Of a stretch of DNA of 64,000 bases, positions 1 through 4,808 are shown in pieces. The position numbers and the translations under genes are program-made. Source of the stretch: a virus. Location of the stretch: the IMG/VR virus record IMGVR_UViG_3300042335_000796, positions 1 to 64,000 of that record. One strand, 5' to 3'. The notes beneath the pieces were generated by a model. It saw only the letters and a program-made list of their open reading frames with translations, searched no databases and was not told the origin of the DNA. The stretch's first letter is position 1; each line of letters opens with the position of its first letter.

Positions 1-482
1 TTAAAATTTTGGGTAATGTTGATTTAAGTAAAAATCAAGAAATAACAACTCTTGGCAATTGTTATGCTGTTGGTGGTCATTTGTATTTAAATTGGTGCCA
101 AAATCTCGAATCACTTGGAAATTTAACCGAAGTTGGTGGTTATTTAGATTTAAGAGAGACAAATATCCAATCACTTGAAAGTTTAACTGCTGTTGGTGGT
201 AATTTGTATTTAGAAAATTGTACAAATCTCCAATCACTTGGAAATTTAACAGAAGTTGGAGGTAATTTAAATTTAAGATATTGTACAAATCTCCAATCAC
301 TTGGAAAGTTAACTGAAGTTGGTGGTTATTTAGATTTAAGAGAGACAAATATCCAATCACTTGAAAGTTTAACTGTTGTTGGTGGTAATTTGTATTTACA
401 AAATACACCAATAGCTAAGACAATGACAAAAAATGAAATAAGACAACAAGTTAATGTTGGTGGTAAAATTTATATGCTATGA
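1..482 (+). CDS. LRR-like repeat protein, array copy 1 (5'-truncated by window edge; 6 modules visible)
   Basis: Repeats of LxSLG/ExLTxVGGxLxL; the first ~126 nt are identical to copy 2 (from 597), so the true start lies upstream of the window; its TGA overlaps the next ATG. Confidence 0.85.
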   Translation, partial: KILGNVDLSKNQEITTLGNCYAVGGHLYLNWCQNLESLGNLTEVGGYLDLRETNIQSLESLTAVGGNLYLENCTNLQSLGNLTEVGGNLNLRYCTNLQSLGKLTEVGGYLDLRETNIQSLESLTVVGGNLYLQNTPIAKTMTKNEIRQQVNVGGKIYML

Positions 483-1018
483 AAACTTTAATTAGAAAAC
501 TATTAAAAGAACAAGAAGAAATAATAACTCTTCCACCTATTATACATTTCGATAATGATTGGAATCTGGTATTGGAAGCGTCTGAAGGAAAACCATTTAA
601 AATTTTGGGTAATGTTGATTTAAGTAAAAATCAAGAAATAACAACTCTTGGCAATTGTTATGCTGTTGGTGGTCATTTGTATTTAAATTGGTGCCAAAAT
701 CTCGAATCACTTGGAAATTTAACTGAAGTTGGTGGTTATTTGGATTTAAGGGAGACAAATCTTCAATCACTTGGAAATTTAACCGAAGTTGGTGGTTGGT
801 TGAATTTATATTATTGCAAAAATCTCCAATCACTTGGAAATTTAACCAAAGTTGGTGGTTGGTTGAATTTAGAAAATTGTGCAAATCTCGAATCACTTGG
901 AAATTTAACCGAAGTTGGTGGTTGGTTGGATTTAAAAAATACACCAATAGCTGATACCATGACTGAAGATGAAATAAGACAACAAGTTAATGTTGGTGGT
1001 AATATTTATATGCTATGA
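479..1018 (+). CDS. LRR-like repeat protein, array copy 2 (5 modules)
   Basis: Constant N-cap MKTLIRKLLKEQEEIITLPP, 20/21-aa repeats, C-cap TPIADTMTEDEIRQQVNVGGNIY. Confidence 0.9.
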   Translation: MKTLIRKLLKEQEEIITLPPIIHFDNDWNLVLEASEGKPFKILGNVDLSKNQEITTLGNCYAVGGHLYLNWCQNLESLGNLTEVGGYLDLRETNLQSLGNLTEVGGWLNLYYCKNLQSLGNLTKVGGWLNLENCANLESLGNLTEVGGWLDLKNTPIADTMTEDEIRQQVNVGGNIYML

Positions 1019-1491
1019 AAACTTTAATTAGAAAACTATTAAAAGAACAAGAAGAAATAATAACTCTTCCACCATTTGAATATTTCGAATACGATTGGAA
1101 TCTGGTATTGGAATTAAGTGAAGGGAAACCATTTAAAATTTTGGGTAATGTTAATTTAACTAATAATCAAGAAATAACAACTCTTGGCAATTGTTATGCT
1201 GTTGGTGGTTGGTTGGATTTATATAAGTGCAAAAATCTCCAATCCCTTGGAAATTTAACAGAAGTTGGTGGTGATTTGGATTTATTTGGGTGTGAAAATA
1301 TCCAATCACTTGGGGATTTAACAGAAGTTGGTGGTGCTTTAAGTTTATATAATTGCGAAAATCTTGAATCCCTTGGAAATTTAACCGAAGTTGGTGGTGA
1401 TTTGGGATTGAGTTGTACACCAATAGCTGATACAATGACAGAATATGAAATAAGAAAACAAGTTAATGTTGGTGGTAATATTTATTTATAA
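1015..1491 (+). CDS. LRR-like repeat protein, array copy 3 (4 modules)
   Basis: Same caps; VGG motif recurs with a 21-aa period (GG at aa 64, 85, 106, 127). Confidence 0.9.
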   Translation: MKTLIRKLLKEQEEIITLPPFEYFEYDWNLVLELSEGKPFKILGNVNLTNNQEITTLGNCYAVGGWLDLYKCKNLQSLGNLTEVGGDLDLFGCENIQSLGDLTEVGGALSLYNCENLESLGNLTEVGGDLGLSCTPIADTMTEYEIRKQVNVGGNIYL

Positions 1492-1907
1492 TGAAAAAAT
1501 TAATCAGAAAACTATTAAAAGAACAAGAAGAAATAATAACTCTTCCACCATTTCATTATTTTGATAATGATTGGAATCTGGTATTGGAATTAAGTGAAGG
1601 GAAACCATTTAAAATTTTGGGTAATGTAGATTTAAGTTATAATCAAAAAATAACAACTCTTGGCAATTGTTATGCTGTTGGTGGTAATTTGGATTTATAT
1701 TTTTGCGAAAATCTTGAATCACTTGGAAATTTAACTGAAGTTGGTGGTTATTTGGATTTATTTGGGTGCAAAAATCTCCAATCAATTGGAAATTTAACAG
1801 AAGTTGGTGGTGATTTGTATTTACAAAATACACCAATAGCACATACCATGACAGAAAATAAAATAAGACAACAAGTTAATGTTGGTGGTAAAATTTATAT
1901 GCTATGA
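1491..1907 (+). CDS. LRR-like repeat protein, array copy 4 (3 modules)
   Basis: Same caps and repeats; TAATG overlap with copy 3. Confidence 0.9.
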   Translation: MKKLIRKLLKEQEEIITLPPFHYFDNDWNLVLELSEGKPFKILGNVDLSYNQKITTLGNCYAVGGNLDLYFCENLESLGNLTEVGGYLDLFGCKNLQSIGNLTEVGGDLYLQNTPIAHTMTENKIRQQVNVGGKIYML

Positions 1908-2443
1908 AAACTTTAATCAGAAAACTATTAAAAGAACAAGAAGAAATAATAACTCTTCCACCATTTCATTATTTTGATAATGATTGGAATCTGGTATTGG
2001 AATTAAGTGAAGGAAAACCATTTAAGATTTTGGGAGATGTTGATTTAAGTAATAATCAAGAAATAACAACTCTTGGCAATTGTTATGCTGTTGGTGGTTG
2101 GTTGAGTTTATTTAATTGCGAAAATCTCCAATCACTTGAAAGTTTAACTGTTGTTGGTGGAGATTTATACTTATACAATTGCACAAATCTCCAATCACTT
2201 GGAAATTTAACCAAAGTTGGTGGTAGTTTGAATTTAAGATATTGTACAAATCTCCAATCCCTTGGAAATTTAACTGAAGTTGGTGGTGATTTAGATTTAA
2301 GAGAGACAAATATCCAATCACTTGAAAGTTTAACTGTTGTTGGTGGTTATTTGGGATTGAGTTGTACACCAATAGCTAAGACAATGACAGAAGATGAAAT
2401 AAGACAACAAGTTAATGTTGGTGGTAATATTTATTGGTGGTAA
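1904..2443 (+). CDS. LRR-like repeat protein, array copy 5 (5 modules)
   Basis: Same caps and repeats; ATGA overlap with copy 4. Confidence 0.9.
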   Translation: MKTLIRKLLKEQEEIITLPPFHYFDNDWNLVLELSEGKPFKILGDVDLSNNQEITTLGNCYAVGGWLSLFNCENLQSLESLTVVGGDLYLYNCTNLQSLGNLTKVGGSLNLRYCTNLQSLGNLTEVGGDLDLRETNIQSLESLTVVGGYLGLSCTPIAKTMTEDEIRQQVNVGGNIYWW

Positions 2444-2452
2444 AATTTTTTT

Positions 2453-2561
2453 TAATTAAAAAAGTAATATTAATAATTATTAATATTAATAATAATATTA
2501 TATTAATAATAATTTATATATATATATATATAAATAAAATAAAAAAAATAATTAAAAAAGT
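2453..2561. other. Pure A/T tract (2465-2559) flanked by 13-bp direct repeats TAATTAAAAAAGT; candidate unwinding element/origin
   Basis: No G or C between 2464 and 2560; repeats at 2453-2465 and 2549-2561; internal (TA)n palindrome. The function is inferred. Confidence 0.5.
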
Positions 2562-2594
2562 CAATAGTTTTTTGAAAAAAAATCATAACACTAA

Positions 2595-2653
2595 TATTTA
2601 TATTAAAAGGTATCATAAACACCTTTGTTAATATAATTAACACAAATGTTTAT
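2595..2653 (+). promoter_or_regulatory. Putative late-promoter motif TATTTATA plus a leader hairpin upstream of the tail tube gene
   Basis: TATTTATA at 2595-2602; imperfect inverted repeat ATAAACA-cc-TTTG-TTAAT/ATTAA-ca-CAAA-TGTTTAT at 2615-2653. Confidence 0.45.
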
Positions 2654-2684
2654 ATAAAAAAATAGATATAAAAGAAAAAATATA

Positions 2685-3173
2685 ATGGCTGATTTATTAA
2701 TGAAAATGCCCATACCTTATGAACCTAAAAGACAAAATAGGTTTATTTTAAGGTTTCCATCCACATTAGGAATAAATGAATGGTTTGTTGAAACTGCAGC
2801 AAGACCAAGTTATAAAGTAAATGCTACAGAAATTCAATTTTTGAATACTTCAACATATGTTGCTGGTAGATTTAATTGGAACCCTATTACTGTTAAATTT
2901 AGAGACCCTATAGGTCCATCAGCGTCTCAAGCTATTATGGAATGGGTTAGACTTTGTACTGAATCTGTTACAGGTAGAATGGGGTATGCTGCAGGGTATA
3001 AGAAAAATGTTGATTTAGAGATGTTAGACCCAACTGGTGTTGTTGTTGAAAAATGGATACTTGAAGGTACTTTCTTAGAATCCGTTAACTTTGATTCATT
3101 ATCATATTCTCAGGATAGTATAGCAAGTATTACAGCAAGTCTTAGAATGGACCGTTGTATTCTTGTTTATTAA
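2685..3173 (+). CDS. Tail tube protein (T4 gp19-like)
   Basis: 162 aa; EPKRQNRF, AGRFNWNPITVKFRD, MLDPTGVVVEKWILEG are typical of large-myophage tube proteins. Confidence 0.85.
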   Translation: MADLLMKMPIPYEPKRQNRFILRFPSTLGINEWFVETAARPSYKVNATEIQFLNTSTYVAGRFNWNPITVKFRDPIGPSASQAIMEWVRLCTESVTGRMGYAAGYKKNVDLEMLDPTGVVVEKWILEGTFLESVNFDSLSYSQDSIASITASLRMDRCILVY

Positions 3174-3230: not shown

Positions 3231-4808
3231 ATGGATTTAAATTTTTTTTTATTAAATAACAAATCAGGATTTAAAACTAAGGAAGCTTGGTTTAAAAAGA
3301 ATTATCCTGATGAATATTTAGATATTTTAGACTATTCAAAAAACATTGATTGTTCATTTAAAGAAAGAATTTGGTTTTATTTTAATAAAACCATTGAACG
3401 ACCTAAATGCTTCAATTGTAAAAATGAATTAAAATTCAACGAAAGATTCGATAATCCATATTCAGAATTCTGCTCAATACAATGCTTTAACTCAAATAAA
3501 GAAGAAATGATTAAAAGGCAAGTTAAAACATTTAATGAAAAATATGGTGTAGATTTTTACCCCAAATGTAGTGATTTTATTAAAAAACAAAAAATAACAA
3601 AACATCAAAGATATGGGAATGAAAATTATGTTAATGTTGATAAAATAAAGGAAACTAAGAAAAAAAGATATGGTAATGAAAATTATACTAATATTGAAAA
3701 ATATAAAATAACTTGTATATCGAAATATAATACTGATAATTATTCAAAGTCTAATCATTATAAAGAAATAATTAATAAAAAATATTCAGAATTATATCCT
3801 AATATAAATTTTATAGAAATTAATAAAAGTTTTGTAAAAATTCATTGCCATAAGTGTAATTCTAATTATGAAATATCAAAACAATTAATATATGAAAGAA
3901 ATTTAAGAAATTATGAAATATGTATAAATTGTAATCCTATTGATGTTTCTAAAAGAAGTGGTTATGAAGATGAAATTATACAATTCTTAATTAAAAATAA
4001 TATTGAAATTATCAAAAATTATAAATTTAATAATTCAAAAAAAGAGATAGACATATTTTTACCAAAATATAATTTAGGTATTGAATTTAATGGGTTATAT
4101 TGGCACTCAGAACTATTTAAGAGTTCAACATATCATCTTGATAAAACGGTTTTAAGTAAAAATGAAAATATTGATTTACTACACATTTTTGAAGATGAAT
4201 GGATTTATAAAAAAGAAATTGTTAAATCAATAATTTTAAATAAATTAGGTATTTTAACTGAAAAAATAAATGCTCGAAATTGTGTAATTAAAGAAGTTTC
4301 ATATAATGATTCAAAAGATTTTTTAGAAAAAAATCATATACAAGGAAATGTTAAATCAAGTATTAGATTAGGATTATATTTTGAAAATGAATTAGTTTCA
4401 TTAATAACATTTTCAAAAGGTCGTATAATTATGGGTGGTAAAAGTGATGAATTTGAACTAAATAGGTTTTGTAATAAACTTAATACAATTGTTGTTGGTG
4501 GATTTTCTAAACTTTTTAAATTTTTTACTAAAAATTATAAATTTAATAAAATTATTTCATATTCAGATATAAGATATTTTAATGGTGGAATATATCTTAA
4601 AAATGGTTTTAAATTTATACATCAAACAAATCCAAACTATTGGTATATTGTTGGCGACTTAAGAATGCATAGATTTAATTTTAATAAGAGAAAATTAATT
4701 TCTATGGGTTACGATTCAAATAAAACTGAAAAAGAAATAATGATTGAAAGAAAAATATATAGAATATATGATTGTGGAAATATTAGATGGGAATATGATT
4801 TACAATAA
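3231..4808 (+). CDS. Free-standing homing endonuclease-like protein (Zn ribbons, TxxxKYG repeats, Vsr/PD-(D/E)XK-like nuclease domain)
   Basis: CFNC, CHKC, CINC; four Txxx(K/R)YG/N repeats; IDIFLPKYNLGIEFNGLYWHS...HIFEDEW; C-terminal RIYDCG. Confidence 0.75.
   Translation: MDLNFFLLNNKSGFKTKEAWFKKNYPDEYLDILDYSKNIDCSFKERIWFYFNKTIERPKCFNCKNELKFNERFDNPYSEFCSIQCFNSNKEEMIKRQVKTFNEKYGVDFYPKCSDFIKKQKITKHQRYGNENYVNVDKIKETKKKRYGNENYTNIEKYKITCISKYNTDNYSKSNHYKEIINKKYSELYPNINFIEINKSFVKIHCHKCNSNYEISKQLIYERNLRNYEICINCNPIDVSKRSGYEDEIIQFLIKNNIEIIKNYKFNNSKKEIDIFLPKYNLGIEFNGLYWHSELFKSSTYHLDKTVLSKNENIDLLHIFEDEWIYKKEIVKSIILNKLGILTEKINARNCVIKEVSYNDSKDFLEKNHIQGNVKSSIRLGLYFENELVSLITFSKGRIIMGGKSDEFELNRFCNKLNTIVVGGFSKLFKFFTKNYKFNKIISYSDIRYFNGGIYLKNGFKFIHQTNPNYWYIVGDLRMHRFNFNKRKLISMGYDSNKTEKEIMIERKIYRIYDCGNIRWEYDLQ

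What the first reader, a model, noticed from the sequence alone, without database searches (positions are those of the whole stretch)
1..2443. VLR-like repertoire: tandem phage LRR-like genes built from shuffled variable cassettes between constant caps
Seen: at least 5 translationally coupled paralogs share a near-constant ~60-aa N-cap and ~24-aa C-cap but hold 6, 5, 4, 3 and 5 modules of 63 or 60 bp (23 in total). The scaffold (NLxSLGNLTEVGG) is nearly invariant. Variation concentrates at the x positions of GG-x-L-x-L-x-x (HLYLNW, YLDLRE, NLYLEN, NLNLRY, WLNLYY, WLDLYK, DLDLFG, ALSLYN, NLDLYF, WLSLFN, DLGLSC) and is rich in Y/W/F/D/N/R. Established: in LRR solenoids the x positions of LxLxx form the concave ligand-binding sheet, and lamprey VLRs diversify by assembling such cassettes between fixed caps. 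Inference: the phage maintains a combinatorial library of protein binders, for example against host defence proteins or receptors. This is the best candidate in the window for an undescribed system.
Basis: partly seen in the sequence, partly recalled or inferred. Interest (0 to 1): 0.92.

Follow-up and report, generated by a model that had tools for sequence, protein, structure and literature searches.

The report
Phage arrays of shuffled solenoid binders
An uncultured giant T4-like phage carries at least nine tandem copies of a small repeat protein whose framework stays fixed while one surface and the number and order of its repeat units change fast, which suggests an evolving set of protein binders, perhaps loaded into the phage head, though no function has been tested.

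Summary
Window 3-2443 has one truncated and four complete overlapping genes with 6, 5, 4, 3 and 5 units of 63 or 60 bp between a constant ~62-aa N-cap and ~25-aa C-cap. The other end of the same 91.5-kb contig has three more genes and a fragment, so there are at least nine genes in at least two arrays.

The proteins model confidently (pLDDT 94) as straight beta-solenoids of the receptor-L-domain/LRR type. Variation sits at x4, x6, x8 and x9 of VGG-x-L-x-L-x-x (pN/pS about 2 against 0.15-0.47). Two relatives' arrays show the same pattern. Unit types recur in different orders, so units are truly shuffled.

The VLR analogy applies only to the architecture. All genes are complete germline genes and no reverse transcriptase was found. 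Homologous recombination plus diversifying selection explains the pattern, as in plant R-gene clusters.

New here: every copy starts with a short leader ending in (L/I)-x-E, the T4 head-protease cut motif. Unrelated proteins of related phages share such leaders, and those phages encode a gp21-type protease. Capsid loading and injection, as for T4 internal proteins, is therefore plausible but unproven. This scan had already noted such leaders on other DNA. The family is viral-only and uncharacterised.

The parts
1..127 (+). Contig start; exact 127-nt copy of window 597-723, which marks an assembly break inside the array
   Evidence: this is the longest exact repeat in the arrays. All internal exact repeats are 108 nt or shorter.
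3..482 (+). W0p: 5'-truncated family gene (159 aa read) with 6 units and the C-cap
   Evidence: Pfam Recep_L_domain E 6.5e-10, 39.6 bits.
479..1018 (+). W1: complete gene, 179 aa, 5 units. Leader MKTLIRKLLKE at 479-511.
   Evidence: AF2 model pLDDT 94.3, beta-solenoid, residues 1-13 of low confidence. Best structural match FlrP 8z5u, Z 13.1.
1015..1491 (+). W2: complete gene, 158 aa, 4 units
   Evidence: Compared with contig L016, the sequence is identical up to about window position 1100 and then diverges abruptly.
1491..1907 (+). W3: complete gene, 138 aa, 3 units
1904..2443 (+). W4: complete gene, 179 aa, 5 units; last gene of this array
2444..2684 (.). AT-rich spacer after the array, with a T4-late-promoter-like TATAAATA at 2529-2536 ahead of the tail tube gene
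   Evidence: 39 TATAAATA sites in the window against 27.6 expected
2685..3173 (+). Tail tube gene (T4 gp19-like), the downstream neighbour of the array
   Evidence: PHROG 4542, E 5e-26. In relative L020 an array follows the tail sheath gene directly.

Best explanation
These genes belong to a large, virus-only multigene family of small (14-25 kDa), acidic, rod-like beta-solenoid proteins of the receptor-L-domain/LRR type. Each protein has a fixed scaffold: N-cap, hydrophobic ladder V1-L5-L7-C10-L13-L16-L19, and C-cap. One face, built from x4, x6, x8 and x9 of every turn, is free to vary and is the likely target-binding surface. New variants arise in the germline in two ways. Point substitutions on that face are favoured by diversifying selection. 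Homologous or unequal recombination among the 60/63-bp units and the near-identical caps changes the number and order of units and moves segments between arrays. The genome thus holds a standing panel of at least nine different binders in at least two arrays. Each protein starts with an 11-residue amphipathic leader ending in L-K-E. I infer that this leader works like the T4 capsid-targeting sequence: it loads the protein into the prohead, a gp21-type protease removes it, and the thin solenoid is ejected with the DNA to bind variable host proteins early in infection. Shown: gene anatomy, fold class, position-specific variability with an excess of non-synonymous change, shuffled unit order, the leader motif and its sharing with unrelated proteins, and the protease gene in relatives. 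Inferred: binding, packaging, cleavage, injection and the identity of the targets. The confidence given is for the whole statement. For the repertoire-by-recombination-and-selection part alone I would say about 0.75, and for the capsid-loading part alone about 0.4.
For: Anatomy and unit counts. Fold: Pfam PF01030 above threshold in 3 of 5 copies; AF2 pLDDT 94.3, pTM 0.87; profile match to FlrP 8z5u at E 6e-13; VIA Z 13.1 to FlrP, 10-11 to LRR domains, 8.8 (rmsd 2.7) to IGF1R/IR L1. Variable face: entropy and pN/pS 1.99 against 0.15-0.47. Among unit pairs at least 90% identical there are 52 non-synonymous and 6 synonymous changes at x4/6/8/9 against 37 and 46 elsewhere. The pattern is replicated in a close relative's 8-gene array (1.63 against 0.47) and in a distant 282-kb relative with 20-aa units (1.65 against 0.38). 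Shuffling: 26 of 33 units have their best match at another ordinal position, and unit types occur in opposite orders (FG then YY/YK in E1 and E2, the reverse in W2; RY then ENC in E3, the reverse in W0p). Recent exchange: L016 is 100% identical to window 315-1100 and then diverges into a different unit set and a different downstream gene. Contig L018, from another sample, has that same downstream arrangement. Leader: residues 1-13 are a detached low-confidence helix. 111 of 112 family members have [LI]xE within residues 3-20, against 83 +/- 4.4 in shuffles. In G001, 19 ORFs start MK(x)IIITE; five are LRR genes and the rest are mostly unrelated small proteins, with synonymous codon variation and unrelated upstream DNA. 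The window's own leader type occurs on non-LRR ORFs in L038, L042, L049, L063 and L083. A gp21-type protease (PF03420) is present in G001, G002 and G003. T4 precedent: gp21 cuts after L/I-X-E; a 10-residue CTS loads otherwise unrelated internal proteins; IPI* is an injected inhibitor of a host restriction enzyme (PMC9026906, PMC3012670).
Against: No experiment or proteome shows packaging, cleavage, injection or binding. The window's own contig is only about 31% complete and contains no head genes or protease, so the protease is shown only in relatives. [LI]xE is short and common in such leaders: 74% of shuffled leaders have one. The proteins are strongly acidic (pI 4.1-4.9). I judge that less obviously suited to packing against DNA. 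pN/pS among repeat units within one genome is not a classical dN/dS, unit pairs are not independent, and gene conversion of the scaffold could inflate the contrast. I could not obtain model coordinates, so exposure of the variable residues rests on strand periodicity and the DSSP string, not on computed accessibility. Short-read assembly of such arrays can produce chimeras. The earlier notes of this scan that read such leaders the same way are not independent evidence.
Confidence: 0.5

Rival explanations
1. Virion-surface adhesins. The constant N-terminal part docks the protein on a tail, baseplate or capsid site and the variable solenoid face recognises host surface structures. The panel would then widen or shift host range.
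For: One array lies inside the tail gene block, between the sheath gene (relative L020) and the tube gene (window). Late-promoter-like motifs lie nearby. In the chimallivirus Goslar, paralogues with a shared N-terminal module carry carbohydrate-binding or LRR/beta-helix domains and are proposed to act in host recognition (bioRxiv 10.64898/2026.04.21.720040).
Against: Other arrays lie next to a terminase gene, a sigma factor gene and a Mom-like gene, so there is no fixed link to tail genes. The proteins are small monomer-like rods with no predicted fibre or oligomerisation domain. The same leaders head many unrelated small proteins, which fits a sorting tag better than a docking domain.
Confidence: 0.17
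2. Intracellular effectors that are not packaged. The proteins are made during infection and bind host or phage proteins in the cytoplasm (host takeover, anti-defence or regulation). The leader is only a conserved N-terminal helix with some other role.
For: There is no signal peptide. The proteins are acidic and soluble-looking. Structural neighbours include LRR domains of injected bacterial effectors that bind host proteins, such as YopM, XopL, IpaH and SspH1. Nothing demonstrates packaging.
Against: This reading does not explain why the same short leader, conserved at peptide level and ending in the protease motif, heads many unrelated proteins in phages that have a gp21-type protease.
Confidence: 0.2
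3. True VLR-like or DGR-like diversification. Units are copied or mutated into an expressed gene during the infection cycle by a dedicated enzyme, giving within-population somatic diversity.
For: The only support is the shared architecture: variable LRR units between constant caps, and a tyrosine/tryptophan/aspartate-rich variable face.
Against: All genes are complete and translationally coupled. There are no cap-less cassettes and no incomplete recipient gene. No reverse transcriptase was found in G000, in the 96%-complete G001 or in G006. Variation is not restricted to adenine-templated codons. The caps are not the cysteine-knot LRRNT/LRRCT caps of VLRs.
Confidence: 0.03
4. Neutral repeat expansion or assembly artefact. 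The arrays would be selfish or slippage-driven duplications, or graph chimeras, with no selected binding role.
For: Both contig ends, and many relatives' contig ends, fall inside arrays. The abrupt switch in L016 could be a chimera.
Against: All frames are intact. Scaffold codons show purifying selection (pN/pS 0.15). The same site-specific pattern appears in three independent arrays. The family has thousands of intact members in many samples. Internal exact repeats are shorter than the 127-nt contig-end repeat.
Confidence: 0.05

Closest known systems
Receptor L domain (Pfam PF01030; L1/L2 of insulin/IGF1 receptors, domains I/III of EGFR) and short bacterial LRR solenoids such as Vibrio FlrP (PDB 8z5u)
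   Same: The repeat signature is the same: I/V-x-G-x-L-x-I/L-x-x-N/C-x-x-L, about 20-21 residues per turn. The fold is a straight right-handed beta-solenoid. Pfam hits are above threshold, the profile matches FlrP at E 6e-13, and VIA Z is 13.1 to FlrP and 8.8 to IGF1R L1.
   Different: These are stand-alone cytoplasmic phage proteins of 138-221 aa with their own N-cap, C-cap and N-terminal leader. They have no signal peptide, unlike FlrP, and no cysteine-rich or receptor context. They occur as multi-copy tandem arrays.
Phage T4 internal proteins (IPI, IPII, IPIII) with their capsid-targeting sequence, and the hyperplastic IP loci of T-even phages
   Same: Small, diverse proteins encoded in variable loci share a short N-terminal leader ending in L/I-x-E. 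The phage clade encodes a gp21-type prohead protease (PMC9026906, PMC3012670).
   Different: There is no sequence similarity to the T4 IPs. The cargo here is one repeat-protein family in many copies with a modular, recombining binding face. Leaders come in at least two types, of 7-13 residues. Packaging and cleavage are untested.
Plant NLR and receptor-like R-gene clusters (from my own knowledge, not checked here)
   Same: Tandem arrays of LRR paralogues, hypervariable solvent-exposed x residues of xxLxLxx under diversifying selection, and changes in unit number by unequal recombination. This is the best evolutionary analogue.
   Different: The kingdom, fold subtype, protein size and role differ: plant host receptors against a virus-encoded family.
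Lamprey and hagfish variable lymphocyte receptors
   Same: Variable LRR units lie between constant caps, and the binding face is rich in aromatic and acidic residues.
   Different: VLRs are assembled somatically by cassette copying into an incomplete germline gene. They use 24-residue LRRV units with disulphide-bonded LRRNT/LRRCT caps and form a curved, concave sheet. None of these features is found here.

Membership tests
Receptor L domain / L-domain-type solenoid (PF01030) | Match to the Pfam model above its gathering score (21.8 bits) | tested here: met
   Scores are 39.6, 29.5 and 23.5 bits for W0p, W1 and W4. W2 and W3, which have fewer units, score 16.7 and 16.9 bits, below the cut-off.
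Receptor L domain / L-domain-type solenoid (PF01030) | Right-handed beta-solenoid fold with about 20-25 residues per turn | tested here: met
   AF2 pLDDT 94.3 with short strands recurring every 20-21 residues. VIA Z 8.8 at rmsd 2.7-2.9 to IGF1R and IR L1, and Z 13.1 to FlrP. Foldseek's top PDB hits are IR L1, but only at E 0.012.
Canonical leucine-rich repeat (LxxLxLxxN/CxL) | Spacing of the conserved segment and a match to the Pfam LRR models | tested here: inconclusive
   LRR_4 and other LRR models reach only E 0.15-0.6. The spacing V1..L5.L7..C10.N12L13 fits the L-domain signature better. Structurally, many LRR domains align at Z 9-11.
Lamprey VLR system | An incomplete germline gene plus flanking cap-less cassettes assembled somatically | tested here: not met
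   All nine genes or fragments carry caps in frame, and no loose cassettes are present.
Lamprey VLR system | Cysteine-knot LRRNT/LRRCT caps and 24-residue LRRV units | tested here: not met
   Units are 20-21 residues. The caps hold one Cys (N-cap) and none (C-cap). TLR4-VLR chimeras match only at E 0.025-0.29.
T4-type capsid-targeted internal proteins | Short N-terminal leader ending in the gp21 cleavage motif L/I-x-E | tested here: met
   The window's genes start MKTLIRKLLKE. 111 of 112 family members have the motif in residues 3-20, against 83 +/- 4.4 in shuffles.
T4-type capsid-targeted internal proteins | The same leader heads otherwise unrelated proteins of the phage | tested here: met
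   This is met in relatives: 19 ORFs in G001 and dozens in other contigs, with synonymous codon variation. In the window's own 91.5-kb contig only two weak non-LRR candidates were seen.
T4-type capsid-targeted internal proteins | A gp21-type prohead protease (Peptidase_S77) in the same genome | tested here: inconclusive
   The protease is present in relatives G001, G002 and G003. It is absent from the window's own contig, which is about 31% complete and has no head genes.
T4-type capsid-targeted internal proteins | The protein is found in the mature head, trimmed at the motif, and injected | not testable with these tools
   This needs virion proteomics or an isolate.
Diversity-generating retroelement target | A reverse transcriptase and a template repeat near the variable region | tested here: not met
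   No PF00078 match in G000, G001 (96% complete) or G006, while the control genomes did match.

The most novel reading that the evidence does not exclude
Giant T4-like phages of this clade keep a recombining panel of rod-shaped solenoid binders. A clip-off leader loads them into the capsid and they are injected with the DNA to neutralise variable host defence proteins. This would be a virus-encoded, germline-diversified counterpart of antibody-like LRR receptors, and its unit shuffling would create new specificities.
Probability: 0.22. Interest if true: 0.85.

Novelty: new variant of a known kind. Interest (0 to 1): 0.62.

Why it matters
If the reading holds, phages would have their own modular binder scaffold that evolves by unit shuffling and surface hypermutation. 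It would be delivered at the moment of infection, which would extend the T4 internal-protein idea from a few proteins to a whole repertoire. It would give a handle on which host proteins are contested in uncultured lake phage-host systems. It would also offer a small, stable, length-tunable natural scaffold for protein engineering. Even without the packaging part, this is a clear case of position-specific diversifying selection and cassette shuffling in a virus-only gene family with thousands of members and no known function.

Tried and rejected
(1) Circular closure of the contig. The contig end and start join in frame with only 3 nt missing. I rejected closure for two reasons: the tail sheath gene expected upstream of the array (as in L020) is absent from the contig, and the contig start is a 127-nt exact repeat typical of an assembly break.
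I could therefore not inspect the 286-kb and 183-kb contigs that carry P0024, P0076 and P0112, and I used IMG/VR records instead.
The scan with N-cap patterns found no relative in 185,579 species genomes. Only those two patterns were tested.
(4) Among isolated and GenBank phages, only one weak unannotated match was found (EBPR podovirus 1, 29.5% identity). A leader-bearing non-LRR protein had no match.
(5) PHROGs, NCBIfam and PADLOC gave no family for these proteins.
(6) Foldseek found nothing in the PDB at E 0.001 or better. VIA-align was needed.
(7) Fused forms (KTSC and PcfJ-like N-termini) gave no functional clue.
(8) DGR was rejected.
(9) The long ORFs on the opposite strand across the arrays (for example 597-947 on the minus strand) are mirror frames of the repeat, not genes. 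This judgement comes and was not tested further.
(10) I could not read model coordinates, so no solvent-accessibility calculation was made.
Full report
**What is there.** The first 2.4 kb of the window holds one 5'-truncated and four complete genes on the + strand: 3-482, 479-1018, 1015-1491, 1491-1907 and 1904-2443. Their stops and starts overlap by 1-4 nt. Each complete protein has three parts:
- a ~62-aa N-terminal part that is about 92% identical in DNA between copies;
- a run of 21-aa units (20 aa in a variant that lacks the Cys);
- a ~25-aa C-cap.

The last unit of each gene is a half unit fused to the C-cap. Tandem Repeats Finder sees the 63-bp period.

**The array is larger than the finding says.** The window is the first 64 kb of a 91,523-bp viral record that CheckV rates about 31% complete. 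The other end of that record (89593-91523) carries three more complete genes with 5, 7 and 6 units and a 38-aa fragment of a fourth.

The two ends could be joined in frame with 3 nt missing, but I do not think the record is circular, for three reasons:
- The first 127 nt of the contig are an exact copy of 597-723, the mark of a k=127 graph break.
- In a relative, an array follows the tail sheath gene directly, and in the window the array precedes the tail tube gene.
- The sheath gene is absent from the whole contig.

The genome therefore has at least two arrays and at least nine genes. Both arrays are cut by the assembler.

**Fold.**
- Pfam gives Receptor L domain above threshold for three of five copies.
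- An AlphaFold2 model of W1, built on 104 homologues, has pLDDT 94.3 and pTM 0.87. It has short strands every 20-21 residues, two C-terminal helices, and a detached, low-confidence N-terminal helix at residues 1-13.
- A family profile matches a solved structure at E 6e-13. That structure is FlrP, a 21.5-kDa periplasmic LRR solenoid bound to the rod of the Vibrio polar flagellar motor.
- VIA-align gives Z 13.1 to FlrP, Z 9-11 to many LRR domains including those of YopM, XopL, IpaH and SspH1, and Z 8.8 at rmsd 2.7 to the IGF1R and insulin receptor L1 domains.
- The conserved spacing V1-G3-L5-L7-C10-N12-L13 is the L-domain signature.

These matches establish the fold, not the function.

**Where the variation is.** Over the 41 units of the contig, entropy is 2.0-2.7 bits at x4, x6, x8, x9 and x11 and at most 1.2 bits elsewhere. 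V1, L7, C10, N12, S15 and L19 never change.

| Array | pN/pS at x4/6/8/9 | pN/pS elsewhere |
|---|---|---|
| This contig (41 units) | 1.99 | 0.47 (all other columns); 0.15 (core scaffold) |
| Close relative L012, 8 genes | 1.63 | 0.47 |
| G001, 282 kb, 20-aa units | 1.65 | 0.38 |

Among the 40 unit pairs that are at least 90% identical, the four x columns carry 52 non-synonymous and 6 synonymous differences. The other 17 columns carry 37 and 46 (odds ratio 10.8; the pairs are not independent).

L5 and L7 are core residues of a strand that DSSP places at unit positions 5-6. So x4, x6 and x8 must point outward on one face. The variable residues are rich in W, Y, F, H, D, N and R.

**Shuffling.** About eight unit types recur. 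For 26 of 33 full units, the nearest unit in another gene sits at a different ordinal position. The order itself differs between genes: FG then YY/YK in E1 and E2 but the reverse in W2, and RY then ENC in E3 but the reverse in W0p. Insertions and deletions alone cannot explain this.

A separate IMG/VR contig, L016, is 100% identical to window 315-1100. It then diverges abruptly inside the N-cap of the next gene into a six-unit gene, followed by a Mom-like gene instead of W3, W4 and the tail tube gene. A contig from another sample, L018, has the same six-unit gene and the same neighbours. This indicates recent exchange between arrays or strains, or else a graph chimera. Short reads cannot tell these apart.

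**Distribution.**
- The word-indexed search listed 338 small homologues, all unnamed.
- The exhaustive search found 3,425 cluster representatives at E up to 0.001. Most of the long ones share only the repeat.
- At least 68 IMG/VR loci carry the family, often as arrays of 2-8 genes and often at contig ends.
- The ESM Atlas has about 30 neighbouring clusters, almost all of whose taxon-assigned members are viruses (one cluster 97%, the others shown 100%).
- No relative was found in 185,579 prokaryote species genomes with two N-cap patterns.
- Only one weak match exists among 50,697 phage records.
- Arrays lie next to different genes: sheath/tube, terminase, a sigma factor and a Mom-like gene.
- No paper on such phage arrays turned up.

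**The leader.** A note of this scan on the same window suggested that the N-terminus resembles a capsid-targeting signal, and I tested that idea.
- In the 96%-complete relative G001, the five family genes and a set of mostly unrelated small ORFs (19 ORFs in all) start MK(x)IIITE. Their codons vary synonymously and their upstream DNA is unrelated, so the conservation is at the peptide level.
- The window's own leader type, MK-x-LI-R/K-K-I/L-L-K-E, also heads non-LRR ORFs in five other contigs.
- Of 112 family members with a full N-terminus, 111 have [LI]xE within residues 3-20, against 83 +/- 4.4 in shuffled leaders. The Glu clusters at positions 7, 11 and 13.
- G001, G002 and G003 encode a Peptidase_S77 (T4 gp21-type) prohead protease, followed in G001 by an acidic scaffold-like gene.
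- In T4, gp21 cuts after L/I-X-E. The first 10 residues of IPIII suffice to load a protein into the head. The otherwise unrelated internal proteins share only this tag, and IPI* is an injected inhibitor of a host restriction enzyme (PMC9026906 and PMC3012670).

The parallel is close, but packaging, cleavage and injection are untested. The window's own contig lacks the head module. Other notes of this scan reached the same reading on other genomes. That is not independent evidence.

**What it is not.** It is not a VLR-type or DGR-type somatic system. All genes are complete, and no reverse transcriptase occurs in G000, G001 or G006. The closest evolutionary analogue is a plant R-gene cluster. 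The closest functional analogue is the T4 internal-protein loci.

**Verdict.** The proteins are acidic (pI 4.1-4.9, against a median of 5.7 for the contig's ORFs). As thin rods whose length, not width, grows with unit number, they could in principle pass through a tail channel. That last point is my inference only.

Noticed in passing
window 3231-4808 (+): A 525-aa homing endonuclease gene (PHROG 3339, E 1e-115) sits between the tail tube and baseplate hub genes, 0.8 kb downstream of the array. A 2026 paper in the library (PMC13096335) reports that a T-even homing endonuclease promotes segmental amplification of anti-defence loci. A link to this array's expansion is only a thought.
   Followed up: no
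G000 89593-91523 (outside the window): A second array of the same family lies at the other contig end: 178, 221 and 201 aa, plus a 38-aa fragment. It is preceded by an overlapping 270-aa ORF with no Pfam, PHROG, NCBIfam or PADLOC match.
   Followed up: partly
window 1-2443, minus strand (e.g. 597-947, 1160-1435, 2112-2372): Long open frames on the opposite strand mirror the repeat (recurring NHQL.LNFQVI). They are most likely non-coding shadows of the repeat rather than genes.
   Followed up: no
window, 39 sites (e.g. 2529, 4826, 19218, 20203, 21077, 40348, 53162): The T4 late-promoter hexamer-like TATAAATA is enriched (39 sites against 27.6 expected; none of 100 shuffles reached 39). Several + strand sites lie just upstream of structural genes.
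   Followed up: partly
G000 77062-77358 and 68248-69657 (outside the window): Two non-LRR ORFs start with MKIIITE-like leaders (MKNFLITEKQ.., MKKIIFSEN..). They are possible further leader-tagged proteins in this phage.
   Followed up: no
L014 8511-10025: In a close relative, the gene after the terminase large subunit (probably the portal) contains what looks by eye like an intein with a homing-endonuclease-like insert. This was not checked with any tool.
   Followed up: no
L087 6400-8760 (G001), minus strand: A cluster of small ORFs (70-86 aa) is rich in repeated S-V-x-x-S-V motifs and lies just upstream of the G001 LRR island. It appears to be another multi-copy family of unknown role.
   Followed up: no
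L012 9012-9554: An ECF-type sigma factor gene (Sigma70_r2 and r4_2) directly follows the 8-gene array of a close relative.
   Followed up: partly
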